Origin: an uncultured Actinomycetes bacterium
Lineage (GTDB): Bacteria > Chloroflexota > Dormibacteria > CF-121
DNA length: 41,724 nucleotides
Reading direction: 5' to 3'
Assembly (NCBI GenBank): GCA_964601135.1
Contig: CAZRMD010000005.1
Coordinates: 1-41,724, forward strand
Part shown: positions 22,610-32,860 of the stretch, piece after piece
How the letters are laid out: each line of letters opens with the position of its first letter
Position numbering within the stretch: position 1 is the stretch's first letter
Notes under the pieces: model-generated
Seen by the model: the letters and a program-made list of their open reading frames with translations, nothing else
The model's database searches: none
What the model was told of the DNA's origin: nothing
Program-made: the position numbers and the translations under genes

Positions 22610-22879
22610 ATGAATGTCGAGGTTCGGGCGACCGGGCTGCGTGCCATGCGCGAGAAGAAAGGGCTCACGCAGCGCGAGCTGGCACACCACCTGGGCATCA
22701 GCCAGAACTATATTCCGGCACTCGAGTCGGGAGCGAGGCGACCTGGACCAAAGCTGCGGCAGGCGTTGATGAAATTCTTCAACGTCAATTTCGAAGAACT
22801 CTTCGAGGTGGTCATGGTGAACCCGGAGAGCGCCAGCGAGCAGGTCCTCGAGCCACGCGACGAGCGTCGCGCCGGCTGA
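22610..22879 (+). CDS. XRE-family helix-turn-helix transcriptional regulator
   Basis: The 89-aa ORF has a Cro/C1-type HTH (LRAMREKKGLTQRELAHHLGISQNYIPALESGARRP). Confidence 0.8.
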   Translation: MNVEVRATGLRAMREKKGLTQRELAHHLGISQNYIPALESGARRPGPKLRQALMKFFNVNFEELFEVVMVNPESASEQVLEPRDERRAG

Positions 22880-22961: not shown

Positions 22962-23037
22962 GCCTGCATAGCTCAGTTGGTAGAGCAGCTGACTCTTAAT
23001 CAGTTGGTCCCGGGTTCGAATCCTGGTGCAGGCACCA
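22962..23037 (+). tRNA. tRNA-Lys (anticodon CTT)
   Basis: A manual cloverleaf fits. The acceptor GCCTGCA pairs with TGCAGGC. The D arm is GCTC-AGTTGGTA-GAGC and the anticodon arm is GCTGA-CTCTTAA-TCAGT. The T arm is CCGGG-TTCGAAT-CCTGG. The discriminator is A and the CCA end is encoded. Confidence 0.9.
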
Positions 23038-23169: not shown

Positions 23170-24522
23170 ATGCGCGGAGTTCGGATTCCTCAAGATCTCA
23201 ACGGCGAAGACCAGTTCGTTCTTGGCCTTTCGGTTCCCCGTCTCGCGGCTGTCTTACTCGGACTGCTAGCCGCGTACACCATCCTTCATCTCTCGCTTCC
23301 CGCCCCACTGCAGATCGGTGCGGCGTCATTTGCCGCGCTCGCCGGCGCCATCGTCGCCTGGGTGCGTCCGGAAGGACGTTCGCTGATCCATTGGGCCGTG
23401 GCCGCGATCGAGTTCAAACTGGGCGAGCGCCCAGCTCGAGTTGGGCGCGACGTCCACGAGCCGTCAAGCCCTGTATCAGCCGTTCCCCAGCGTCGGGTGA
23501 TCTCCAAGCCGGTAGCAGCCTCACCAAGTCTTCGGGTTCTGAGGGCTGCTTCGGACTCGCCGCAACCTCGTAGCCCAGAGATTTCGGCGGATCCCGAGGT
23601 GCTTGAAATCAGCGGCGAGCCTGACGTTGGACTGGCCGACCCGGAGGTTGCGGATGAGGCCGGTCGCCTGCTACCGGCTCCGGTGTACCTTGGCGGCCCG
23701 CAGTTGATCGCGTTCTTTTCCACGAAGGGCGGAACGGGCCGGACAACCCTGGCTACGGAGATCGCCTCATTGCTGGCAATGAAGGGTCGCTATCGCGAGT
23801 CACCGTCGAGCGGACCTCAGCGGCTCCGCGTCGCCTTGATCGATTTCGACCTGGCTTCGGCCAACGTTTCCGCTCGGTTCGGGCTCGCCCAGCCAACGAT
23901 GCTCGATTACCTGTCTGACGCCAGCGTGCCGCACCCCGATCCACGGGACTTTCTGATCCGTCATCCGGCAACCAGCGTCGATGTGCTGCTGGGCCCCTCA
24001 AAGTGCCTTGCCGGCGACCGCTCGGACCTCATGGGTGTCGCCCAAGCTGCGCACATCCTGAGCGCCTTGAAGGCAGCGGGGTATCAGTACCTGGTTCTCG
24101 ACCTCGCTGCGGCTCTGGGAGATCTCGAGACGTACCTGCTGGAAGCGGCCACCCGGATCTATTGCGTGGTGACGCCCACGGCCGGCTCGATTCAGTCGCT
24201 CTATCGGGGGGTTGAGGCTCTTCGACGGCTCGGCCTCGGGGCAAAGCTGCACTACGTCGCCAACAAGATGCGCGACGGCATCAGCCTCGCCGAACCCATG
24301 GGTGACCTCAACGGGTCGCTCGTCGCTCGCATTCCCTATGACCCTGCCTTTGAAGCCGCAGAGAATCGGCATCAACCGCTTGCCACCTATGGAAATGGGC
24401 CAACCCTTGACGCGCTGATGCAACTGGCCGCCGCGATCTACCCCGCATTGCAGGTTCCTCCGGCCGGCCGGTCCGCAGTGTCGCCATTCGCCTGGTTCGC
24501 AAGACGACGCCGTGCTGGCTGA
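23170..24522 (+). CDS. Fusion protein: N-terminal PrgI-family (VirB3-like) membrane domain, Pro/Ser/Glu-rich linker, C-terminal TadZ/CpaE-like MinD/ParA-type ATPase
   Basis: The N-terminus (RIPQDLNGEDQFVLGLSVPRLAAVLLGLLAAYTIL) plus a second hydrophobic segment matches the PrgI-family pattern. The linker contains DPEV repeats. The C-domain has the deviant Walker A FSTKGGTGRTT and a MinD/CpaE-like body (LIDFDL, YLVLDL, IPYDP). Confidence 0.75.
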   Translation: MRGVRIPQDLNGEDQFVLGLSVPRLAAVLLGLLAAYTILHLSLPAPLQIGAASFAALAGAIVAWVRPEGRSLIHWAVAAIEFKLGERPARVGRDVHEPSSPVSAVPQRRVISKPVAASPSLRVLRAASDSPQPRSPEISADPEVLEISGEPDVGLADPEVADEAGRLLPAPVYLGGPQLIAFFSTKGGTGRTTLATEIASLLAMKGRYRESPSSGPQRLRVALIDFDLASANVSARFGLAQPTMLDYLSDASVPHPDPRDFLIRHPATSVDVLLGPSKCLAGDRSDLMGVAQAAHILSALKAAGYQYLVLDLAAALGDLETYLLEAATRIYCVVTPTAGSIQSLYRGVEALRRLGLGAKLHYVANKMRDGISLAEPMGDLNGSLVARIPYDPAFEAAENRHQPLATYGNGPTLDALMQLAAAIYPALQVPPAGRSAVSPFAWFARRRRAG

Positions 24523-25822
24523 CGTATCTGCCCGCCCCGTGCCGCCGACACCCGAGGAGCTGCGACAATTCGTGCGCTCGCAGCTCACCCTGCAGGTGGA
24601 CCCGGAAATCATCAACCCGTTCTCCACCAATCCGAATCGTCAACAGATCCTCAGGGACCGGATTCGCCACGCCGTCATACAACGGCAACTGCTGCCGACC
24701 GCCGAGCTGGTCGACACGCTCTTCGATGAGATCGTCGGCCTGGGCCCGCTTGAGCCGCTCATGGCCGATCCCGACATCACAGACATCCTGGTGAATCGGT
24801 TCGACGAAATCTATGTCGAGCGGCGAGGCCGGCTCGAGTTCGTACCTTGCGCATTTCGCGACGACGCCCAGCTCGAGCAGGTGATTCACAAGATCGTGGC
24901 GCTCGTTGGCCGCGAGATCAACATCGACAAGCCGCTAGTCGACGCCAGGATGGTGGATGGGAGCCGCGCCAATGCGGTCTACGCGCCCGTTGGGGGACCG
25001 ACCTTGTGCATTCGAAAGTTCAGTCGGGTGCGGCTGGCGCTGGTCCCGGATGAGCGACGCCCAGATCTCCCCAGCTGGGTCAGCACGGGTGGCCTGTCGT
25101 CACAGATGGGCGCATTCCTCGAAGCCATGGGGGTGGCCCGGGCGAACATCTTGATCGCTGGCGCCACCGGAAGCGGCAAGAGTACCTTGCTTCGTTCCAT
25201 CGTCAGCGCCTTTCCCGAGGACGAGCGCGTGATCACGATCGAGGACACCGCCGAACTAGAGCTGGAGAACCCGCATTGGGTCAAGCTCGAGTGCGTGCAT
25301 TCCAGGGAACTGGCCGGCAAGACCACCCAGGAGCGGCGACTCGATGTTGCCGACCTGGTCCAGAACGCGCTCCGGATGCGACCGGACCGTTTGATCATCG
25401 GAGAGATCCGCCACAGCAAAGAGGCCTACTACGTGCTCGAAGCCCTGAACACCGGGCACGATGGCTCGGCGACCACCATCCATGCCAGCAGTTGCGATGA
25501 CGCCCTGGCACGGCTGGAGTTGTTGGTGAGTCGGGACTTTGGGCAATTGAGTGCGGGAGAAATCCGCCGTTATGTCGCCCGCGTCTTCGACCTTGTCGTC
25601 TTCGTCAGCCGGTTGCGGAATGGCCGCCGTTATGTCCTTGAAATTGCCGAGCTGCGCGGCATCGACCCCGATGGACAGTACCTGCTGATGCCAGTCTTCG
25701 TGGGGGATATCACCAACGGGCATCACGGGATCAGCGTTGATTTCAGAAGTCTTCCGGATTATCGACCCGGTACCCGCCTGAATCGGAAGCTCGAGCTGCA
25801 AGGGATGCGATGGCTTTCCTAG
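24512..25822 (+). CDS. tadA: TadA/CpaF-family secretion ATPase (T2SSE/VirB11 superfamily)
   Basis: Motifs: GLGPLEPLMADPDITDILVN, Walker A GATGSGKST, Walker B RPDRLIIGEIR, His box LNTGHDGSATTIHA. It overlaps the upstream gene by 11 nt. Confidence 0.9.
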   Translation: MLADVSARPVPPTPEELRQFVRSQLTLQVDPEIINPFSTNPNRQQILRDRIRHAVIQRQLLPTAELVDTLFDEIVGLGPLEPLMADPDITDILVNRFDEIYVERRGRLEFVPCAFRDDAQLEQVIHKIVALVGREINIDKPLVDARMVDGSRANAVYAPVGGPTLCIRKFSRVRLALVPDERRPDLPSWVSTGGLSSQMGAFLEAMGVARANILIAGATGSGKSTLLRSIVSAFPEDERVITIEDTAELELENPHWVKLECVHSRELAGKTTQERRLDVADLVQNALRMRPDRLIIGEIRHSKEAYYVLEALNTGHDGSATTIHASSCDDALARLELLVSRDFGQLSAGEIRRYVARVFDLVVFVSRLRNGRRYVLEIAELRGIDPDGQYLLMPVFVGDITNGHHGISVDFRSLPDYRPGTRLNRKLELQGMRWLS

Positions 25823-26664
25823 CCGCGGCCTGCGTGGCGATGGCGATCCTCACTCTGGGCCTGGCAATTCCGGCTGGCCACCAGCGTGACCAGCGACGAT
25901 GGATCGATTCGCTCCTGGACCGCAGCCGGGAGCGGCTGGTACAGGCGCGCATCGCCGGAGACCCGCGCACCTATCTCGCCCTGCAATTGCTGGCCCCGGT
26001 CGGGTTATTTGCGATCGGCTGGCTCCAATCGCCGGTTCTCGCGGTGGCCGGCGCTGTCGCTGGACTTTTGACTCCGCGCATGTACGTGGCCTGGTTGATA
26101 CGTACCCAGTCTCGGCGAAGCGAGGCGGAGGCGCCGCATTTGCTCCAGGCGCTGTTAACAGGTCTCAGCGCTAGCGGAACATACCTGGACGCGCTTCGGC
26201 AGGCCAGGCTCAGCTGTTCTGATTCCTGGCTGCAGCAGGACCTCGACTCCATCATCCAGCGATTCCTGCTCGACACACCGCTCCACGAGAGCCTGGAGGA
26301 GGTTCTTGGCCGGACGACGACCCGAAATCTCCGACTCATCTGGGAAACGCTGCGGATCTGCACCGAGAACCATTTGCCGACGGAGAAAGCCCGAAGCCTT
26401 TTCATGGAACTGTCCTCGACCGTGCAGTTCAATCTGCAGCTCGCCAACGAAGTGCGCGCTCGCTCCACGGGCCAGCGAGCCCAGATCTGGCTGCTGGCCA
26501 TCATCGTTCCGGCCATGTATCTCTACCTGCGATTGATGAGCCCGCAGCTGCTGACTGTCCTCGATGACACCATCGTGGGCCGCGTTGTTTTGTTTCCGCT
26601 GGCGGTGGCATTGGAACTCGGCGGTATCGTCCTCAGCTGGCGGATTGCTCGGTTCGAAGCATGA
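25810..26664 (+). CDS. tadB: TadB-like pilus platform protein (T2SSF domain)
   Basis: The 284-aa ORF has an N-terminal TM segment, a central soluble T2SSF-like helical domain and C-terminal TM segments. It overlaps tadA by 13 nt. Confidence 0.8.
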   Translation: MAFLAAACVAMAILTLGLAIPAGHQRDQRRWIDSLLDRSRERLVQARIAGDPRTYLALQLLAPVGLFAIGWLQSPVLAVAGAVAGLLTPRMYVAWLIRTQSRRSEAEAPHLLQALLTGLSASGTYLDALRQARLSCSDSWLQQDLDSIIQRFLLDTPLHESLEEVLGRTTTRNLRLIWETLRICTENHLPTEKARSLFMELSSTVQFNLQLANEVRARSTGQRAQIWLLAIIVPAMYLYLRLMSPQLLTVLDDTIVGRVVLFPLAVALELGGIVLSWRIARFEA

Positions 26665-27563
26665 TGGTGGGAGCGCTCTGCGCCGGGCTCGCCTGCTTTC
26701 TCGGCCTTCAGGCCGTTTTGATGGGTCCGCCGAAACGCTCGCTTGCCAGTCGAGAGTTGATTCGGGCGAGCACCCTTTCCCCGGTGGAATGGCGACTGCA
26801 TCAACAGGCCCGCCTGGATTGGTATCAACGCTGGCTGCGCCCGACGGTGTTGCTCTCGGCCGCTCGACTCCATCTTCGACCCAGCCGGATGGACCCGCTG
26901 TACTTCATTCAGGCGGGAATCAATCCGGAGCACGTCGATGGCACGGAGCTGCGCGTCATTCGATTGATGGCTGGGATTGCCGGCGCCGCAGCCGGCGGTC
27001 TCCTCGCTCTGTTCGTGTCGGGCGGTCTCGCCATCATTCCGTTGCTGGCATGGGTCGGCTACATTGCGCCGGCGCGCGCCATCGCGGCCCGGCGGCGGCA
27101 GCGCCAGTCGGCCCTTCAGCGTGAGCTGGCGCAACTGATCAGCATGCTCCGCGCCTTCATCACGGCCGGGATGCCACTCGAGCGGACGCTGCACATCCTG
27201 TCCGCAAGCTCGCGGCCCGACAGCATCCTCAAGCAGGAGATCCGGCACGCCTTGGGGCGGTACGGGCTTGGATTGAGCATCGAGCAGGCTCTGCAGGAAA
27301 TTGGACCCCGCACCGGCGTCGACGACCTCAGCGGATTTGTTGCCGCAGTCAGCCAGGCCAAGCGCGCGGGGAGCAGCCTGGAGGCAACGCTGCGCGATCA
27401 GGAGTTGATGGTTCGAATGAATCAGCGCAACCGGGCCACAGCGCAGGCCGCGGCGGTAAGCACCAAACTGCTCGCGGTGGTGGGCGGAGTCTACCTGCCG
27501 GAATTCGTGATCTTGATCATCGTTCCACTGTTCTGGGGAATCATGCGGCGGGCGTTTGGATGA
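26661..27563 (+). CDS. tadC: TadC-like pilus platform protein (T2SSF domain)
   Basis: The 300-aa ORF has a T2SSF-like segment (LAQLISMLRAFITAGMPLERTLHIL...LEATLRDQ) and flanking TM segments. An ATGA overlap joins it to tadB. Confidence 0.8.
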   Translation: MMVGALCAGLACFLGLQAVLMGPPKRSLASRELIRASTLSPVEWRLHQQARLDWYQRWLRPTVLLSAARLHLRPSRMDPLYFIQAGINPEHVDGTELRVIRLMAGIAGAAAGGLLALFVSGGLAIIPLLAWVGYIAPARAIAARRRQRQSALQRELAQLISMLRAFITAGMPLERTLHILSASSRPDSILKQEIRHALGRYGLGLSIEQALQEIGPRTGVDDLSGFVAAVSQAKRAGSSLEATLRDQELMVRMNQRNRATAQAAAVSTKLLAVVGGVYLPEFVILIIVPLFWGIMRRAFG

Positions 27564-27611: not shown

Positions 27612-27764
27612 ATGAACACGTTGAAACGCGGACAGTCGACACTCGAATGGGTCATTGGTGCGGCGATCATTCTCGGCACGCTCGTGGTCGGCGTCATGGC
27701 TTGGAACCAGGGACTCGTGGCAAAGATGGGTCAGATGGTCCAGCGCCTGACGCAGACCCAATGA
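27612..27764 (+). CDS. flp: Flp-like / actinobacterial-type (DUF4244-like) prepilin, 50 aa, not in the ORF track
   Basis: The ATG at 27612 is preceded by a GGGAGGAAG RBS. Sequence: MNTLKRGQSTLEWVIGAAIILGTLVVGVMAWNQGLVAKMGQMVQRLTQTQ. It has a short basic leader, a G/QSTLEW class III processing motif with Glu at +5, then a hydrophobic helix. Its position after tadC matches actinobacterial tad loci. Confidence 0.75.
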   Translation: MNTLKRGQSTLEWVIGAAIILGTLVVGVMAWNQGLVAKMGQMVQRLTQTQ

Positions 27765-27792: not shown

Positions 27793-28185
27793 ATGAGGCG
27801 ACGACGCCAGCAAGGCCAGGAAACGCTGCAGGCGATCCTGGTCGTCGCGTTCATGCTCCTGCCGGTCCTTTTCGGCATCATCGAGCTCGGCAGCGTGATC
27901 CAGGCGTGGATCGGCCAGCAATCTGCCACGGCGCTGGGGGCACGGGTCGCCGGTGAGCGCGGTGAGGACGACGCGACGGTCCGAGACCGTATTGCCGCTG
28001 AGCTACGGGCTGCCGGCCTTGACCCTGCGAAGGTTCAGGTACGCGTGATGCCCGCCTACGTGCCGTGGGGCCAGCCCATCACGGTTCGCCTGGTGAGCCA
28101 ACGCCGGGTGGCTATACCGTTCTTGTTCAGTCGCGACGTGACGCTGACGTCGACCTATGTGGGACGCGGAGAGATAAATCATTGA
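27793..28185 (+). CDS. tadE: TadE-like pseudopilin / pilus assembly protein
   Basis: The 130-aa ORF has the N-terminal TadE signature RRQQGQETLQAILVVAFMLLPVLFGIIELG. Confidence 0.75.
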   Translation: MRRRRQQGQETLQAILVVAFMLLPVLFGIIELGSVIQAWIGQQSATALGARVAGERGEDDATVRDRIAAELRAAGLDPAKVQVRVMPAYVPWGQPITVRLVSQRRVAIPFLFSRDVTLTSTYVGRGEINH

Positions 28186-28691
28186 CCGGGTCCGCGCGCT
28201 TGCGTTATCACCTGGTGCCCTGTAGGCGCCGCGGCCAGAGCGTCCTCTACGCGGTTCTCCTGATGCCCACGCTATTTCTCGTACTCGCCCTCGCCATCGA
28301 TATGGCGGGTCTGCAGCTCGACAAACTGCGAGTTCGATACGCGCTCGACATGGCAACCATCACCGGGGCGACGGCCGTCGACCGCAACACCTATATCCAA
28401 ACCGGTCGGCTGCGGCTCGATCCGAACGCTGCGACATCGGTGACCCGGGAATACCTGCTGCGAAACCTGAAAGCGCTGCCGGACACGCCGACGCCAGAAG
28501 AGGTCGCGGCGGGGGCCGACATCACGGTTGTCAACCGGGTTCCCGCCCACGATCCGTACACCGGCCTGGTACTGGACCGCCCGGCAATCTGTGCTCGCAT
28601 CAAGCTGCGCCACCGTTTTGACCTGCTTGGGTGGGTTGGTATGAACGCCATCAACTTCTCGGTCACATCGACAGCGGAGATCCGTACCTGA
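28182..28691 (+). CDS. TadG/TadF-like (Tad N-terminal domain) pseudopilin-like protein
   Basis: RRRGQSVLYAVLLMPTLFLVLALAIDMAGLQ resembles the TadE/G-like N-terminal domain. The start is uncertain: TTG 28182 (TTGA overlap with the tadE stop), TTG 28200 or GTG 28215. The ATG at 28065 in the track is an out-of-context extension. Confidence 0.65.
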   Translation: MTGSARLRYHLVPCRRRGQSVLYAVLLMPTLFLVLALAIDMAGLQLDKLRVRYALDMATITGATAVDRNTYIQTGRLRLDPNAATSVTREYLLRNLKALPDTPTPEEVAAGADITVVNRVPAHDPYTGLVLDRPAICARIKLRHRFDLLGWVGMNAINFSVTSTAEIRT

Positions 28692-29962
28692 CCAGGCTGC
28701 GAATCATCAAACGCTCGCTCGCCGGAGTCCTCGGTCTCAGCTTCCTGGCCGCCTCATCAGCCAGCGGCCAGACCGCAGCAGGGCCGAGTGTCAGCGTCAG
28801 CATCACCGCCGTATCCGGCGAGGCCGGGCATGCATTCGTGTATGCGCAGGTAAGCGATTTTTTGGCCACATTTCCCGCTCCTACCGGCACCACCCACCTG
28901 TCACCGTATTACTCGGAGTGGATTGAAGAACCCTTCGCGACCCCGTCCTGTCCGTGGATCTGGGCGGTATACGTGTTCAATCGCTGGACGAATGAACAGG
29001 TGAACACTCCTCCGCCAGGTGCGCCGCTGCCTACGTTCGGGACGACGACGCGAGTATGCGCCAGCCCGACAAGCACCCCGGTCGATCAGCCGCCGGTTGC
29101 AAATGCTTCCGCAGAGCTTGACCTGGATCTGCAGGTCAGCATGTCACCGCCGGTTGCGATCGCCGGGTCGACGACCCTGGTGTCGGCCAGTCTCAGTAGT
29201 GCACTGACCCAGGATCTAAACCTGTATCTGAGCATGGGCATCGCGGACTGGTCGGTGAGCGGCTGGTCGGTCGAGTTCGGTGACGGCCAGGCCGCGCGCC
29301 TCCATGGCGGCAGCGCAACGGCGATCCAGGTTCCCCACGTGTACCGCTCGGCCGGGACCTACGACACCCGAGTCGTCGCCTCGATATCTGGTCATGCGCA
29401 GGCGGCGGTCTACGATCGCTTCGGAAGCGTCCAGCTCATCCGCCGGCCGTTCAATGTCGACGTCGCCAATCATGCCCTGGCGACGACCCGTTCGCAGCCG
29501 GCACGGAGATACGTGCCGCCCGAGGCGACCGTGACCGTTTCGCCCAGCCTGGGCTTCGCAGCGGGGGACGCCAGTGCACCCGGTTTCCGCCAAATTGACG
29601 CGCTGCGCGGTTCGCTGACGACGCTAGCCGTCCACCTGCTCCTCATACGCGAAGGCCAACTGACCGTCGATGGCCGGTCGCGCGGCTACGGCCGCTCGCG
29701 CCTCACGGGCTGGCGTCTCGACGGCTCGCCTTCGGACGCCCCGCCAGGAAGTGGGACGATTCCCGGACCCATCCATGCCGCCGGTGATCTCCTGCGGCTG
29801 CAATGGAATGCGCCCGACCACGTCATCGGCGGGCAGCCGACCGACTACATCGTGCCCATGACGCTCTACATCGAGACGCGTTTTCCAGATGGCCATGTTG
29901 GGTCGTATGCCATGTCATCGAGCTTTTCAGTATCGGTTGGTTTTTCTGCACAGAGTGGCTAG
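28631..29962 (+). CDS. Secreted protein of unknown function with a PKD-like domain
   Basis: A Sec-type signal is present (RSLAGVLGLSFLAASSASG). A central segment (VEFGDGQAARLHGGSATAIQVPHVYRSAGTYDTRVVA) matches the PKD-domain consensus pattern. The start is uncertain; ATG 28631 overlaps the upstream gene by 61 nt. Confidence 0.6.
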   Translation: MGWYERHQLLGHIDSGDPYLTRLRIIKRSLAGVLGLSFLAASSASGQTAAGPSVSVSITAVSGEAGHAFVYAQVSDFLATFPAPTGTTHLSPYYSEWIEEPFATPSCPWIWAVYVFNRWTNEQVNTPPPGAPLPTFGTTTRVCASPTSTPVDQPPVANASAELDLDLQVSMSPPVAIAGSTTLVSASLSSALTQDLNLYLSMGIADWSVSGWSVEFGDGQAARLHGGSATAIQVPHVYRSAGTYDTRVVASISGHAQAAVYDRFGSVQLIRRPFNVDVANHALATTRSQPARRYVPPEATVTVSPSLGFAAGDASAPGFRQIDALRGSLTTLAVHLLLIREGQLTVDGRSRGYGRSRLTGWRLDGSPSDAPPGSGTIPGPIHAAGDLLRLQWNAPDHVIGGQPTDYIVPMTLYIETRFPDGHVGSYAMSSSFSVSVGFSAQSG

Positions 29963-29970
29963 GAGGGGAT

Positions 29971-30627
29971 ATGAAGCGGAGCATCTATTTGTCGGTGTGC
30001 GTTGTGCTTGCGGCCGCCGCCGGATTTTTCTACTACAGCCAAACCCGCCAGTCGACGGCGGTCGTTGCGACCCGCGATCTCAGTGTTGGCGTCCGCATTC
30101 AGGACGCCGACGTAACCACGCGATCGGTGAATCCACTGTCGCTCGACGGCCAGATGCTTCGAACACCCGATCAGGCCATCGGCCAGGTGGTCGCCTTTCC
30201 GATTCTGCAAGGACAGTTCATCGGTGCACGGCAGGTTGCGCCATCAAAGAACGCCGCGATGCTGACCGCAGGATTGCAGGTGCCGGCAGGCTACCGCGTC
30301 ATCGGCGTACCCATTGCACCGGCCACCGCGGTGGGCGGCGTGCTCAAGCCCGGTGATCTGGTCGATGTCATGGCAATCCCTAATCCATCGAAGGCCACGG
30401 GGATCATCGATGAAGCCACGCCCACGCCGACCACGATCGGCAAGAATGTGCTGGTGCTCGGGCTTCGGACTGATCAGGGGGCGCAGGTCGACCAGTCCGA
30501 CCATGGACTGACCGTCGGCAATAGCAAGCCGGAGAGCGTCCTGCTGGCAATCCCGGAGGCCGAGGAAACAACCTACTCGCACGCCATTGCCAGCTCGACC
30601 TTCGTCCTGGCTCTGAGCACCGACTGA
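29971..30627 (+). CDS. cpaB: CpaB/RcpC-family Flp pilus assembly protein (SAF plus RcpC-like domains)
   Basis: The ATG at 29971 is preceded by an AGGAGGGG RBS. An N-terminal TM segment is followed by a SAF-like segment (VVATRDLSVGVRIQDADV) and YRVIGVPIAPATAVGGVLKPGDLVDVM, typical of CpaB. Confidence 0.75.
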   Translation: MKRSIYLSVCVVLAAAAGFFYYSQTRQSTAVVATRDLSVGVRIQDADVTTRSVNPLSLDGQMLRTPDQAIGQVVAFPILQGQFIGARQVAPSKNAAMLTAGLQVPAGYRVIGVPIAPATAVGGVLKPGDLVDVMAIPNPSKATGIIDEATPTPTTIGKNVLVLGLRTDQGAQVDQSDHGLTVGNSKPESVLLAIPEAEETTYSHAIASSTFVLALSTD

Positions 30628-30637
30628 GCGGTCGTCG

Positions 30638-32860
30638 ATGGTCAGACTGTTTCACCGGGCGGGCTTTGGCGGCGAGGTATCGGCCGTCCGCGACGGTCTC
30701 CTGATGCTCAGGAGCGGCTCACCCCGGGCGCTGATCGCGACCTCCTCCTTGAATTTCGAAGGTCTCGCCCCCGAGCACCAGCTGCGCGCCGTGCAAGCTT
30801 TTCGAGACCTCTTGCACGCTCAGGCCGGCCCGTTACAGCTGTATCTTCGAGTCCGGCGGCTTCCGGCAGGTGACGCCCAGGAGCCCGAGGCTGACCGCTT
30901 CGCTTACCGGCGCGATTATCTCGCGGCCTCGACGCGCAGCTTCATCAATGCCCATCTGCAGGACACCCCGGTCTACCAGCGAGAGGTCCTCATCGTTCTG
31001 GCGCCAATCGAGTCCGGGCGTCAGCTGCTCCGTTCGTGGCGCTTTCGCTTTGACCGCTCGAATGAGGCAGCCTATGTCGCGACCGACCTCGGACAGCCGC
31101 TCAAGGCTCGCGCCCACTCCTTGATCGACCAGTTGCGCCGGATCGGGCTCAAGGGTGAGCTGCTCGACGACCGCGCGCTGACCCTCCTGGTCGAGGATCT
31201 CTACGGCAAGGGGTGGCCAATCGAGTCGGGTGCGCGCCAGGACTTTGCCAATCGAGCCGACAGCCTGGAAATCCAGGGTCGCCGATACGTCTCGTTCGTG
31301 GTTGACCGCTATCCCGGCGAAGAGATCGAACCCGGCTGGCTCCTGCCGCTGCTGAGCTTTAAGGGCGAGCTCCATGTCGGCATTCACATTCAGCCGCTGG
31401 AGACGGATCGGATGCTGGCCATTCTTCATCACCGCATCCGTGACCTCCGGGCCGACGACATGGCGAATCAGGAGTCAGGTGCACTGCGACGAGGCGCGGT
31501 GGGTACCCTTCCAGATGCGCTCACCATGCATCAGGCGCTCGCGCGCAACGAGGAGAAGGCCTTCGCCGTCAGCTTTTATCTGACGGTCGGCGCCGACGAT
31601 CCAGTCCAGCTCCGCAGCCAGGTTGACGCGCTGCGCACAAGCTGCCGGCGAATGATGCTGCATACCGTGCAGCCGTACTTCGAGATGCGGCAGGGCCTCC
31701 TGTCCTGCTGGCCACTGGGAACCGATCTCCTCGCTCGGCAGAGCATCCTCCACACGAGTGCCGTCGCGACGATGTTTCCCTGGTTGCAGGAAGACCTGGC
31801 CGATCCGGAGGGGCACTACTGGGGCTACAACAAAGACACCGGCGGCCTGTGCGTCTTCGATCCCTTCGACGAAAGCCGTTTTACCAATGCCAACATCGCG
31901 GTGCTGGCGCATTCGGGAGCGGGCAAGAGCTATGCGGCGGCCTCCGTGGTGCTCAGCGGCTATACGCGCGGGCTCGGTGCGATCGTTCTGGATCCGGAGG
32001 CCGAGTATGGGGGCATGATCCGCAACCTGGGCGGCACGTACTTTCACCTGGCGGCCGGTTCGGGCCACGCCATCAACGTCCTCGACCCATTGCTCTTTGC
32101 CCTCGATTCGGAAGAGCCGACGGATCAGTTGGCCGACGTGTTGGATCTGATCGCCTTGATGTGCGGCCGGCTCGACGAGTTCGAACGGGCACAGATCGAG
32201 ACGGTCATCCGTTCGGTCCTCGCCAGCGGCGACACGACCCCCGTGCTCCGGGACGTCTGGCGGCGTCTGGACGCGACCCACCCCGGATCACGCCCCAGCA
32301 CCATTCTTCGACGCTGGGTAACGGGGGATCTGGGAGGACTGTTCAGCGCACCAACCAATGTCGATCTGAGTACGGCGATCGTTGGTTTCAACCTGCGCGA
32401 CCTGAGCGATGAACTGATCCCTCCGGCGTATCTCATCCTGGCCAACTGGTTATGGGCATCGCTAAGACGGCAACGGAGACCTCGGCATCTTCTGATCGAC
32501 GAGGCCGGGCTCCTGCTTGAACACGAACCCATCCGCCGATTCCTGATCAGGCTGGCGCGTCGCATCCGAAAGTATGGCGGGAGTTTGATCCTGGTCAGCC
32601 AGAACCCCGGAGACTTCTTCGAAACCAAGGACGGTGCGGTCCTGGCGACCAACCCCAGCATCCTGCTCCTCGGGTCGCAGAAGCACTCAGAGGCTGTCAA
32701 GCTGCAGAAGGCCTTCAACCTGACGGAACGGCAGCTGAACTATCTCGAAACGGCTGAGCGCGGTGACTTCCTCCTGGTTGCCGGACCCAATCGGGTGCCG
32801 GTCCACATCATGGCCCCTCCCTGGATGGATGAAATGATCGTGACTTCCCGCGGACATTGA
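30638..32860 (+). CDS. VirB4/PrgJ/TrsE-like type IV secretion ATPase (DUF87/TraC-VirB4 family)
   Basis: The 740-aa ORF has an N-terminal domain typical of Gram-positive VirB4 homologues (LIATSSLNFEGLAPEHQLRAVQAFRDLLHAQAGPLQLYLRVRRL). Motifs: Walker A HSGAGKSY, ILDPEAEYGGMIRNLGGTYFHL, INVLDP, Walker B LLIDEAGLLL, and RKYGGSLILVSQNPGDF. Confidence 0.8.
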   Translation: MVRLFHRAGFGGEVSAVRDGLLMLRSGSPRALIATSSLNFEGLAPEHQLRAVQAFRDLLHAQAGPLQLYLRVRRLPAGDAQEPEADRFAYRRDYLAASTRSFINAHLQDTPVYQREVLIVLAPIESGRQLLRSWRFRFDRSNEAAYVATDLGQPLKARAHSLIDQLRRIGLKGELLDDRALTLLVEDLYGKGWPIESGARQDFANRADSLEIQGRRYVSFVVDRYPGEEIEPGWLLPLLSFKGELHVGIHIQPLETDRMLAILHHRIRDLRADDMANQESGALRRGAVGTLPDALTMHQALARNEEKAFAVSFYLTVGADDPVQLRSQVDALRTSCRRMMLHTVQPYFEMRQGLLSCWPLGTDLLARQSILHTSAVATMFPWLQEDLADPEGHYWGYNKDTGGLCVFDPFDESRFTNANIAVLAHSGAGKSYAAASVVLSGYTRGLGAIVLDPEAEYGGMIRNLGGTYFHLAAGSGHAINVLDPLLFALDSEEPTDQLADVLDLIALMCGRLDEFERAQIETVIRSVLASGDTTPVLRDVWRRLDATHPGSRPSTILRRWVTGDLGGLFSAPTNVDLSTAIVGFNLRDLSDELIPPAYLILANWLWASLRRQRRPRHLLIDEAGLLLEHEPIRRFLIRLARRIRKYGGSLILVSQNPGDFFETKDGAVLATNPSILLLGSQKHSEAVKLQKAFNLTERQLNYLETAERGDFLLVAGPNRVPVHIMAPPWMDEMIVTSRGH

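What the first reader, a model, noticed from the sequence alone, without database searches (positions are those of the whole stretch)
23170..24522. PrgI/VirB3-like membrane domain fused to the TadZ/CpaE-type organiser ATPase
SEEN: residues 1 to about 85 carry the PrgI-type signature (RIPQDLNGEDQFVLGLSVPRLAAVLLGLLAAYTIL plus a second hydrophobic helix). A linker of about 90 aa, rich in Pro/Ser/Glu and containing DPEV repeats, follows. The rest is a MinD/ParA-type domain with the deviant Walker A KGGTGRTT.

ESTABLISHED: canonical TadZ/CpaE proteins are cytoplasmic, with an N-terminal receiver-like domain. VirB3-like proteins are small membrane partners of VirB4 and are fused to VirB4 in some lineages.

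INFERENCE: the fusion would tether the Tad organiser to the membrane through a domain whose known partner is VirB4. That gives a concrete physical link between the two halves of the locus.
Basis: partly seen in the sequence, partly recalled or inferred. Interest (0 to 1): 0.75.

Follow-up and report, generated by a model that had tools for sequence, protein, structure and literature searches.

The report
VirB3-like anchor fused to pilus ATPase organiser
One intact, widely conserved gene joins the small membrane piece of a type IV secretion system (VirB3/PrgI) to a MinD/ParA-type organiser protein, at the head of an operon that mixes Tad (Flp) pilus genes with a VirB4 secretion ATPase; this suggests, but does not prove, that the two machines are physically joined.

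Summary
ORF 23170-24522 is intact (450 aa). Residues 5-87 match Pfam PrgI above its curated cut-off and model as two membrane helices plus a short third helix. Residues about 88-171 are a disordered, fast-evolving tether. Residues about 172-430 are a MinD/FleN/FlhG-like P-loop domain with Walker A KGGTGRTT.

The gene opens a 10-gene operon (TadA, TadB, TadC, pilin-like genes, CpaB, VirB4). This operon is syntenic in at least 17 Dormibacterota species and sits among housekeeping genes, so it is not a mobile element.

The fusion is not unique to this contig. At least 71 clusters (50% identity level) carry both domains, in about 8 subfamilies from Dormibacterota, Chloroflexota and one Acidimicrobiia MAG.

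A VirB4 gene lies in cis in 40 of 53 informative loci. In 14 of those loci it directly follows the fusion gene and no Tad ATPase is nearby. Chloroflexota relatives add a VirB2-like pilin, a possible VirB6, a cell-wall hydrolase, a coupling-ATPase-like gene and a Replic_Relax gene, which together look like a conjugative module.

The "TadZ/CpaE" label rests on gene position and fold only. I found no paper describing this fusion.

The parts
22610..22879 (+). XRE-family HTH gene just upstream; candidate regulator. Context only; a role in this operon was not tested.
   Evidence: Pfam HTH_3 51.4 bits. It is 91-99% identical across Dormibacterota loci, more conserved than any neighbouring gene.
22962..23037 (+). 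tRNA-Lys(CTT), 132 nt upstream of the fusion gene.
   Evidence: ARAGORN. Present at the same position in 6 related loci. No second copy of its 3' end and no att-like direct repeat flanks the operon.
23170..24522 (+). Fusion gene (450 aa): PrgI/VirB3-like hairpin, disordered tether, MinD/ParA-type domain.
23182..23430 (+). PrgI/VirB3-like membrane module (residues 5-87): TM helix 22-39, TM helix 45-64, helix 72-84.
   Evidence: Pfam PF12666 30.1/34.5 bits against cut-off 27. AF2 helices with block pLDDT about 91-98. Hydropathy and charge distribution. G19 and W75 are invariant across 50 diverse family members.
23431..23682 (+). Variable, predicted-disordered tether (residues 88-171) with a short semi-conserved motif (D/E)V(I/L)E(L/I)(P/S) at about residues 143-148.
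   Evidence: Almost all of residues 90-165 have pLDDT below 50. Mean pairwise identity is 18% against 35% for the flanking domains, and length is 18-167 aa in the family. Some members have about 250-390 aa here with no further Pfam domain. Motif seen.
23683..24459 (+). MinD/FleN/FlhG-like P-loop domain (residues 172-430); Walker A KGGTGRTT at 23725-23748.
   Evidence: Pfam CbiA and AAA_31. Foldseek hits FleN, MinD and FlhG with target TM-score 0.77-0.82. The family profile hits MinD at E 1.8e-26. Walker A variation is tabulated.
24512..25822 (+). TadA/CpaF-type secretion ATPase; its start overlaps the fusion gene's stop by 11 nt.
   Evidence: Pfam T2SSE 155.5 bits. NCBIfam TIGR03819 'TadA family' 242.5 bits and VirB11 199 bits, both below their cut-offs.
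25810..26664 (+). TadB-like platform protein.
   Evidence: Pfam T2SSF is weak (19.8 bits, below cut-off). Polytopic by hydropathy. Conserved position in all loci.
26661..27563 (+). TadC-like platform protein.
   Evidence: Pfam T2SSF 48.7 bits.
27612..27764 (+). 50-aa candidate Flp-type pilin (KRG/QSTLEW followed by a hydrophobic helix).
   Evidence: Sequence features. It is 82-94% conserved across Dormibacterota loci and 51% identical to the small gene at the same position in Chloroflexota loci. It has no Pfam Flp_Fap hit and no similarity to the Flp_Fap gene of L040, so the pilin call is an inference.
27793..28185 (+). TadE-like pseudopilin.
   Evidence: Pfam TadE 21 bits, just below the cut-off of 22.9. 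N-terminal G/QETLQ followed by a hydrophobic helix.
28065..28691 (+). Second TadE/TadG-like protein. The true start is probably near 28200-28230.
   Evidence: Pfam Tad/TadE weak hits at 17-18.5 bits. In several related loci (L001, L013, L017, L061) the match begins at about residue 53-56; in most others it spans the whole ORF, in part over the overlapping upstream gene.
28631..29962 (+). PKD-domain protein with an N-terminal signal/anchor; conserved member of the operon.
   Evidence: Pfam PKD 24.5 bits. 27% identical to the 393-aa protein at the same position in Chloroflexota operons.
29803..30627 (+). CpaB/RcpC-like protein. The true start is probably ATG 29971 (MKRSIYLS...).
   Evidence: Pfam RcpC 46.5 bits and SAF; NCBIfam TIGR03177 75.9 bits against cut-off 71. 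In several loci the match begins at residue 55-58.
30638..32860 (+). VirB4-family ATPase (740 aa), last gene of the operon.
   Evidence: NCBIfam 'VirB4-like conjugal transfer ATPase, CD1110 family' 237.7 bits (cut-off 325) over residues 202-722. PDB 4ag5, a VirB4 C-terminal domain, at E 1.8e-35 and 8e-41 with the profile. Walker A GAGKS and Walker B LLIDE are invariant. Of 853 plasmid hits, 585 are on plasmids typed conjugative.

Best explanation
What is shown. The gene encodes an inner-membrane protein made of three parts. The first is a VirB3/PrgI-type two-helix hairpin followed by a short helix. The second is a flexible tether whose length varies widely across the family. The third is a cytoplasmic MinD/FleN-type P-loop domain with a degenerate Walker A. 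The gene sits where tadZ/cpaE sits in Tad operons, directly upstream of tadA. The operon also ends in a VirB4 ATPase.

What I infer (mechanism). The protein is a membrane-anchored assembly adaptor for hexameric secretion ATPases. The ParA-type domain would dimerise and recruit or position TadA, as TadZ is reported to do. The VirB3-type module would insert next to VirB4 and bind it, as VirB3 does in type IV secretion systems. TadA, the TadB/C platform and VirB4 would then be held in one envelope complex.

What I infer (function). In Chloroflexota relatives the same core is embedded in a conjugative-element-like module, so the ancestral role was probably DNA transfer by a Tad/T4SS chimera. The Dormibacterota copy in this window has lost the DNA-processing and channel genes and is chromosomally fixed. 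It most likely builds or operates a Flp-type pilus, with VirB4 as a second motor. Its substrate and use (adhesion, DNA uptake or export) are unknown.
For: Architecture and topology.

Match to the published description of VirB3. PMC12857230 describes VirB3 as a small protein with two TM helices and a C-terminal helix, encoded next to virB4 and binding VirB4 1:1.

Conservation.
- 278 or more close homologues share the architecture.
- 71 of the best 150 cluster representatives carry both domains.
- Pfam PrgI matches 31 of 50 diverse members and CbiA matches 46 of 50.
- The N-terminal domain is as constrained as the ATPase domain.

Gene context.
- The full operon is syntenic in 14 of 14 informative Dormibacterota loci.
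- The fusion gene is directly followed by VirB4, with no TadA/B/C nearby, in 13 of 13 group-4 loci and in L106.
- The same order, from the fusion gene to CpaB then VirB4, occurs in L060 and in 11 Chloroflexota loci.
- Every fusion gene examined lies next to a TadA-type ATPase, a VirB4-type ATPase, or both.

Chloroflexota elements. They add T4SS_pilin (27 bits, cut-off 26.6), a polytopic protein, an SLT+M23 hydrolase, a DUF87/TrwB-like ATPase and Replic_Relax at 59 bits.

TadZ as a recruiting hub. PMC6668835 describes TadZ as a FleN-subfamily ATPase with an atypical Walker A and as a hub that recruits other Tad components.

The window flanks are housekeeping genes with no T4CP, relaxase or integrase.
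Against: - No interaction was tested or modelled.
- 13 of 53 loci lack VirB4 within 10 kb, including 9 Chloroflexota loci that still keep the VirB2-like and polytopic genes.
- The first ~200 residues of the window's VirB4-like protein match no known VirB4 N-terminal model.
- No CpaE/TadZ-specific model matched the ATPase domain, and no solved TadZ structure appeared among the PDB matches.
- The signature lysine of the deviant Walker A is kept in only 15 of 50 family members, so ATP-dependent dimerisation is uncertain.
- No prepilin peptidase is in the operon, and the 50-aa 'pilin' has no Pfam Flp hit.
- The locus counts are not phylogenetically independent.
Confidence: 0.5

Rival explanations
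1. Anchor only. The PrgI-derived hairpin survives merely as a membrane anchor for a TadZ-like organiser. In this lineage it replaces the receiver-like domain or an amphipathic helix. The VirB4 gene in the operon is an evolutionary leftover of a conjugative ancestor and works independently or not at all.
For: 13 of 53 loci have the fusion plus TadA/B/C and no VirB4 within 10 kb. Tether length is unconstrained, from 18 to about 390 aa.
Against: The N-terminal module is as conserved as the catalytic domain (35% against 35%), with G19 and W75 invariant. VirB4 is the best-conserved protein of the operon apart from TadA (57-87% identity) and keeps its Walker A and B motifs. In 14 loci the fusion gene and VirB4 are kept together while TadA/B/C are absent.
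Confidence: 0.28
2. T4SS component, not a pilus organiser. The ParA-type domain acts like Agrobacterium VirC1 or plasmid ParA proteins, recruiting a DNA or protein substrate to the VirB3/VirB4 entry site. Its position next to tadA would be incidental.
For: In minimal modules the fusion gene pairs with VirB4 without TadA. Pfam VirC1 matches 3 of 50 family members weakly. Chloroflexota relatives carry Replic_Relax and a coupling-ATPase-like gene. That VirC1 is a ParA-like recruiter is from my own knowledge.
Against: In 39 of 53 loci tadA follows the fusion gene directly or within about 1 kb, often with overlapping stop and start codons, which is the tadZ position. 13 loci have Tad genes and no T4SS ATPase. 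The window has no relaxase or coupling protein that could supply a DNA substrate.
Confidence: 0.17
3. Artefact. Two separate genes, prgI and tadZ, were merged by a sequencing or assembly frameshift.
For: None found.
Against: The ORF is continuous. The same single ORF is present in hundreds of independent assemblies from several sources and phyla. The linker varies in sequence and length but stays in frame.
Confidence: 0.01

Closest known systems
PrgI of pCF10 and other VirB3 subunits of type IV secretion systems (Pfam PF12666)
   Same: Two membrane helices plus a following helix. The Pfam match spans the full model length and scores above the cut-off. The gene lies in an operon with a VirB4 gene and is directly adjacent to it in paralogous modules.
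   Different: It is not a free-standing 10-15 kDa protein. It carries a tether of about 85 aa and a ParA domain of about 260 aa. In the window the gene is 6 kb from virB4, and some family members have no virB4 nearby. For comparison, the Pontibacillus plasmid has the canonical form: a free 116-aa PrgI/TraL-like gene one gene upstream of virB4.
TadZ/CpaE, the ParA/MinD-superfamily organiser of Tad (type IVc) pili
   Same: First gene before tadA-tadB-tadC. MinD/FleN-like fold. Atypical Walker A, which PMC6668835 also reports for TadZ.
   Different: The N-terminal receiver-like domain of TadZ (my knowledge) is replaced by a membrane hairpin and tether. No CpaE/TadZ-specific sequence model matched. 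The protein would be permanently membrane-bound.
VirB3-VirB4 fusion proteins of some conjugative systems (mentioned in PMC12102498)
   Same: VirB3 is covalently joined to a P-loop ATPase of the same machine.
   Different: Here the fused partner is a MinD/ParA-type domain, not VirB4. VirB4 remains a separate gene.
Chimeric T4SS + type IV pilus transfer systems (PAPI-1 island, IncI plasmid R64), as reviewed in PMC12857230
   Same: A VirB4-containing transfer apparatus is combined with a type IV pilus machine. The Chloroflexota relatives also carry coupling-ATPase-like and relaxase-like genes.
   Different: Those systems are proteobacterial, their pilus is not of the Tad/Flp (type IVc) kind, and in R64 the pilus and T4SS genes lie in two separate clusters. 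No fusion protein linking the two machines is described in that review. Here the pilus is Tad/Flp type, the genes are interleaved in one operon, and the hosts are Chloroflexota and Dormibacterota.
SCO6880 family (NCBIfam NF042935) of Actinomycetota
   Same: Its N-terminal ~80 residues align weakly with the same PrgI-like region (E 1.8e-4, profile positions 12-82 of 477). This suggests another VirB3-like hairpin carrying a long C-terminal extension.
   Different: The score (20.6 bits) is far below the cut-off (60). The C-terminal parts do not align, so it is not a ParA fusion.
MinD / FlhG / FleN
   Same: Closest solved structures and sequences for residues 172-430.
   Different: Those proteins bind the membrane reversibly through a C-terminal amphipathic helix (my knowledge). 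This protein is anchored by an N-terminal hairpin, and the P-loop lysine is Arg.

Membership tests
PrgI/VirB3 family (PF12666) | Sequence match to the family model above the curated threshold | tested here: met
   30.1 bits for the whole protein and 34.5 bits for residues 1-100, against a cut-off of 27, covering profile positions 1-87 of 91. 31 of 50 diverse family members match at E <= 0.01.
PrgI/VirB3 family (PF12666) | Two transmembrane helices plus a C-terminal helix, with both ends cytoplasmic | tested here: met
   AF2 helices 22-39, 45-64 and 72-84 with block pLDDT about 91-98. Hydropathy and a positively charged C-terminal flank. Topology is inferred, not measured.
PrgI/VirB3 family (PF12666) | Small free-standing protein (10-15 kDa) | tested here: not met
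   450-aa fusion protein.
PrgI/VirB3 family (PF12666) | Gene adjacent to virB4 | tested here: inconclusive
   Window: same operon but 6.1 kb apart. Groups 4 and 5: directly adjacent in 14 of 14 loci. 13 of 53 loci have no virB4 within 10 kb.
PrgI/VirB3 family (PF12666) | Binds the N-terminal domain of VirB4 (1:1) | not testable with these tools
   No multimer prediction was available. The VirB4 N-terminus (residues 1-200) matches no model.
TadZ/CpaE | ParA/MinD-superfamily fold with an atypical Walker A | tested here: met
   Foldseek target TM-score about 0.8 to MinD, FleN and FlhG. Walker A is KGGTGRTT. The signature Lys is kept in 15 of 50 members, and the P-loop position is R in 31 and K in 19.
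TadZ/CpaE | Gene immediately upstream of tadA in a tad operon | tested here: met
   The stop of the fusion gene overlaps the tadA start (24512 against 24522). The same order occurs in 39 of 53 loci.
TadZ/CpaE | N-terminal receiver-like domain | tested here: not met
   The N-terminus is a PrgI-like hairpin followed by a disordered linker, with no Response_reg hit.
TadZ/CpaE | Match to a CpaE/TadZ-specific sequence model | tested here: not met
   NCBIfam returned only BcsQ, MinD, KGGVGR-variant and ParA models, all below their cut-offs. No solved TadZ structure appeared among the PDB matches. Some source databases label homologues 'CpaE'.
Tad (type IVc) pilus system | TadA ATPase, TadB/TadC platform, Flp pilin, TadE/F pseudopilins, CpaB; prepilin peptidase | tested here: inconclusive
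   TadA, TadC and CpaB are clear. TadB and the TadE-like genes score below cut-off. The 50-aa pilin is inferred from its features only. No prepilin peptidase or secretin is in the window.
Conjugative type IV secretion system (monoderm MPF-FA/FATA type) | VirB4 plus VirB3, VirB6, VirB8, a cell-wall hydrolase, a coupling protein and a relaxase | tested here: not met
   The window has only VirB4 and the VirB3-like domain. Chloroflexota relatives have VirB2-like, hydrolase, coupling-ATPase-like and Replic_Relax genes, and a polytopic protein with only a non-significant TrbL/VirB6 hit at E 0.098.

The most novel reading that the evidence does not exclude
The fusion marks an undescribed class of envelope machine: a Tad-pilus/T4SS chimera in Chloroflexota, Dormibacterota and some Actinomycetota. 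In it, a single polypeptide (VirB3 hairpin, tether, ParA domain) docks the VirB4 hexamer and the TadA motor on one platform. In Chloroflexota this would drive conjugative transfer through or along a Flp pilus. In Dormibacterota it has been domesticated as a chromosomal system. It has also been reduced to a three-gene unit (Flp pilin, fusion gene, VirB4) in which VirB4 may itself handle the Flp pilin.
Probability: 0.35. Interest if true: 0.85.

Novelty: new variant of a known kind. Interest (0 to 1): 0.7.

Why it matters
How type IV secretion ATPases cooperate with type IV pilus machines in chimeric transfer systems such as PAPI-1 is flagged as an open question in the 2025 T4SS review (PMC12857230).

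A conserved covalent fusion of a VirB3 module to the organiser-position ATPase of a Tad operon gives a concrete hypothesis for that coupling. It is testable by modelling and by two-hybrid assays.

The gene set involved is small: three genes in the minimal modules. It also points to a large group of T4SS-related loci in poorly studied soil phyla for which I found no description in the searchable literature. Their conjugative-element relatives may matter for gene flow in Chloroflexota.

Tried and rejected
- First structure prediction. A shallow alignment (22 sequences at 65% identity or more) gave a poor model with pLDDT 43.5. It was superseded by the model built on the diverse alignment.
- Sequence search of the N-terminal profile against the PDB found only chance membrane hits, with best E 0.12. 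No solved VirB3 was recovered.
- hhalign of the N-terminal profile against the free-standing PrgI/TraL-like protein of the Pontibacillus plasmid was uninformative (probability 4%, single-sequence template).
- The search for related loci with the 50-sequence diverse alignment failed because no stretch was conserved enough. Subfamily alignments were used instead.
- The scan with the Dormibacterota VirB4 alignment returned almost only the same phylum.
- tblastn of the fusion proteins against plasmids gave only one weak ParA-domain hit each. The Pontibacillus hit is a ParA-like protein without a PrgI domain, next to a canonical T4SS.
- ICE inserted at tRNA-Lys in the window: rejected. There is no att-like repeat, no integrase, relaxase or coupling protein, and both flanks are syntenic in many species.
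- Extra domains in the long family members (600-755 aa): none found, only longer linkers.
- The window's 50-aa pilin candidate shows no similarity to the Flp_Fap pilin of the minimal modules.
I worked around this.
- Literature searches for a VirB3-TadZ/ParA fusion, for Tad+VirB4 operons, and for pili in Dormibacterota found nothing relevant.
Full report
**1. The observation**

The ORF 23170..24522 (+) is intact, starts with ATG and encodes 450 aa. A GAAGGGGG ribosome-binding sequence lies about 10 nt upstream.

Pfam places PrgI (PF12666) on residues 5-87. The score is 30.1 bits against a curated cut-off of 27, or 34.5 bits when residues 1-100 are scanned alone. The match covers positions 1-87 of the 91-position model. 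Other membrane families reach only E of 0.035 or worse, so the hit is not a composition effect.

Hydropathy shows two hydrophobic segments joined by a short uncharged loop. The flank after the second helix carries six K/R. From this I infer an N-in/C-in hairpin.

The next ~85-90 residues are Pro/Ala/Val/Ser-rich and contain DPEV twice.

Residues 179-345 match CbiA (36.5 bits) and AAA_31 (32.9 bits). The Walker A is KGGTGRTT, so the canonical P-loop lysine is Arg. This is invariant in 26 close relatives.

A first AlphaFold2 run on a shallow alignment was poor. A second run on 50 diverse homologues gave mean pLDDT 82.4. Helices 22-39, 45-64 and 72-84 have block pLDDT of about 91-98, residues 90-165 are disordered, and the P-loop domain is confident. 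Foldseek and a profile search put that domain closest to FleN, MinD and FlhG, with target TM-score about 0.8 and MinD at E 1.8e-26.

Two TM helices plus a C-terminal helix is the form described for VirB3 subunits in PMC12857230.

**2. The operon and its setting**

Downstream, with overlapping or nearly abutting boundaries, lie:
- a TadA/CpaF-type ATPase (24512-25822);
- TadB- and TadC-like platform proteins;
- a 50-aa pilin-like gene;
- two TadE-like genes;
- a PKD-domain protein;
- CpaB/RcpC;
- a 740-aa VirB4-family ATPase (30638-32860).

The VirB4 call rests on three results. NCBIfam 'VirB4-like conjugal transfer ATPase, CD1110 family' scores 237.7 bits, below its cut-off of 325. PDB 4ag5 matches at E 1.8e-35. 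The Walker A and B motifs are invariant.

Upstream are folD, folB, an XRE-type HTH gene and tRNA-Lys(CTT). Downstream are an alpha-galactosidase, a hydrolase and Dtd.

The rest of the window is housekeeping. It holds no coupling protein, relaxase, VirB6, VirB8 or integrase.

The whole arrangement, including both flanks, recurs in Dormibacterota MAGs. VirB4 is present in all 14 loci that extend far enough. The tRNA is conserved in place and there is no att-like repeat. This is therefore a vertically inherited chromosomal operon, not a mobile element.

**3. How far the fusion extends**

The word-indexed search returned 278 proteins, and all 120 listed (65% identity or more to the query) match CbiA and AAA_31; PrgI is also recorded for all but eight of them.

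An exhaustive profile search of 1.84 billion cluster representatives gave 1465 hits at E of 1e-3 or better. Among the best 150, 71 carry both an N-terminal PrgI-like domain and the ParA-type domain by local HMMs. They fall into about eight subfamilies at 24-40% identity to the window protein.

Pfam PrgI matches 31 of 50 diverse members, and CbiA matches 46 of 50.

Across these 50, the N-terminal module is as conserved as the ATPase domain (35% against 35% mean pairwise identity), while the linker is at 18% and ranges from 18 to 167 aa. Some members have linkers of about 250-390 aa with no extra domain.

The signature lysine of the deviant Walker A survives in only 15 of 50. The P-loop position is R in 31 and K in 19.

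Named sources place the family in three groups:
- Dormibacterota;
- Chloroflexota, including Limnocylindria;
- one Acidimicrobiia MAG.

**4. Gene context across the family**

Three layouts recur.

(A) Full hybrid: fusion gene, TadA, TadB, TadC, pilin, TadE-like genes, (PKD-like), CpaB, VirB4. This is the window type (14 of 14 loci), L060 and 11 of 20 informative Chloroflexota loci.

(B) Minimal: (Flp_Fap pilin), fusion gene, VirB4, with no TadA/B/C within 10 kb. This holds in 13 of 13 loci of a Dormibacterota subfamily and in L106. L040 (minimal) and L060 (full) share the same upstream neighbours. The minimal form therefore looks like a reduction at the same chromosomal site.

(C) Tad only: fusion gene, TadA/B/C, with or without pilins and CpaB. 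This is L042, L043, L104, L105 and 9 of 20 Chloroflexota loci.

In total, VirB4 is in cis in 40 of 53 informative loci and TadA in 39 of 53. Every fusion gene examined sits beside at least one of the two ATPases. These counts are not phylogenetically independent.

**5. The Chloroflexota relatives**

Their operon begins with a T4SS_pilin gene (VirB2-like; 27 bits against a cut-off of 26.6). Next comes a ~370-aa polytopic protein with only a non-significant TrbL/VirB6 hit (E 0.098), then the fusion gene.

After VirB4 come an SLT+M23 cell-wall hydrolase, a ~730-aa DUF87/TrwB_AAD_bind ATPase that resembles a coupling protein, and a Replic_Relax protein at 59 bits.

Flanks carry toxin-antitoxin, Fic, Shedu, TIR and methylase genes. 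Some MAGs hold three or four copies. In L102, a Pnkp/Hen1 cassette sits between CpaB and VirB4.

Together this looks like a conjugative element whose mating apparatus interleaves Tad and T4SS genes. I did not test mobility.

**6. Interpretation**

Shown: the architecture, its conservation, its position in front of tadA, and its strong but not universal linkage to VirB4.

Taken from the literature:
- VirB3 binds the VirB4 N-terminal domain 1:1, and its gene lies next to virB4 (PMC12857230).
- TadZ is a FleN-subfamily ATPase with an atypical Walker A that acts as a recruiting hub for Tad components (PMC6668835).

Inferred: the protein is a permanently membrane-anchored adaptor. Its cytoplasmic domain would organise TadA and its hairpin would engage VirB4, joining both motors in one complex.

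The main rival is that the hairpin is now only an anchor. That reading is favoured by the 13 VirB4-less loci and by the unconstrained tether length. It is disfavoured by the strong conservation of the hairpin and by the retention of the fusion-VirB4 pair where the Tad genes are gone.

A second rival is a VirC1-like substrate recruiter. It fits the minimal modules but not the Tad-only loci or the window, which lacks DNA-processing genes.

An assembly artefact is excluded.

**7. Comparison with known systems and novelty**

VirB3-VirB4 fusions are known (mentioned in PMC12102498). T4SS-plus-type-IV-pilus chimeras such as PAPI-1 and R64 are recognised as non-canonical transfer systems whose coupling is not understood (PMC12857230). 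Cutibacterium acnes plasmids carry a Tad locus together with VirB4-like genes (PMC5696575).

I found no description of a VirB3/PrgI-ParA (TadZ-position) fusion or of this interleaved operon. Databases label the proteins 'MinD-like ATPase', 'ParA family', 'CpaE' or 'PrgI family protein'.

I rate it a new variant of known kinds.

**8. Limits**

- No multimer modelling was possible.
- Topology is inferred, not measured.
- The pilin assignment of the 50-aa gene is by features only.
- The first ~200 residues of the VirB4-like protein are unassigned.
- Taxonomy rests on MAG labels.
- Locus counts come from pattern-based scans and from a handful of look-ups.

Noticed in passing
window 22610-22879 (+): The 89-aa XRE/HTH_3 gene upstream of the operon is 91-99% identical across Dormibacterota species whose neighbouring genes are only 50-85% identical. 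That is unusually strong constraint for a small regulator. It may control the operon.
   Followed up: partly
window 22962-23037 (+): tRNA-Lys(CTT) sits between the HTH gene and the fusion gene and is conserved there in six related species. No att-like repeat of its 3' end exists in the window, so there is no sign of recent integration. An ancient insertion at this tRNA cannot be excluded.
   Followed up: yes
window about 23596-23613 (residues 143-148, VLEISG); same alignment columns in A1 and A5: Inside the otherwise unconserved linker there is a short semi-conserved hydrophobic/acidic motif, (D/E)V(I/L)E(L/I)P, about 25-30 residues before the ATPase domain. It could be a short linear binding motif.
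   Followed up: no
L040 9699-13309; L045-L056; L106 6178-9251: Other Dormibacterota carry a three-gene unit (Flp_Fap pilin, PrgI-ParA fusion, VirB4-like ATPase) with no TadA/B/C within 10 kb. L040 shares its upstream neighbours (Transgly ... MerR, Glyco_transf_20, Aldedh) with L060, which has the full operon. L106 also has an Aldedh gene directly upstream.
   Followed up: partly
L101 273-16450; L061/L062 8509-18067; L086: Chloroflexota loci interleave T4SS-like genes (VirB2-like pilin, polytopic protein, VirB4, SLT+M23 hydrolase, coupling-ATPase-like gene, Replic_Relax) with a complete Tad gene set. They occur in up to four copies per MAG and are flanked by defence and toxin-antitoxin genes. 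They are probably conjugative elements.
   Followed up: partly
L102 5749-9731: A Pnkp/Hen1 RNA-repair cassette is inserted on the opposite strand between CpaB and VirB4 in one Chloroflexota element.
   Followed up: no
window 28065-28691 and 29803-30627: The mechanical ORF starts of the second TadE-like gene and of CpaB are probably too far upstream, because they overlap the preceding genes by 121 and 160 nt. Likely true starts are near 28200-28230 and at ATG 29971. Homologue matches begin at about residues 53-58 in only some loci.
   Followed up: partly
L105 5160-10148: The closest out-group member of the window's subfamily (P0123, about 40% identity) has the fusion gene plus TadA/B/C next to a serine recombinase and a VirD4-type coupling protein (T4SS-DNA_transf, TraG-D_C) on the opposite strand. 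This suggests a mobile-element context.
   Followed up: no
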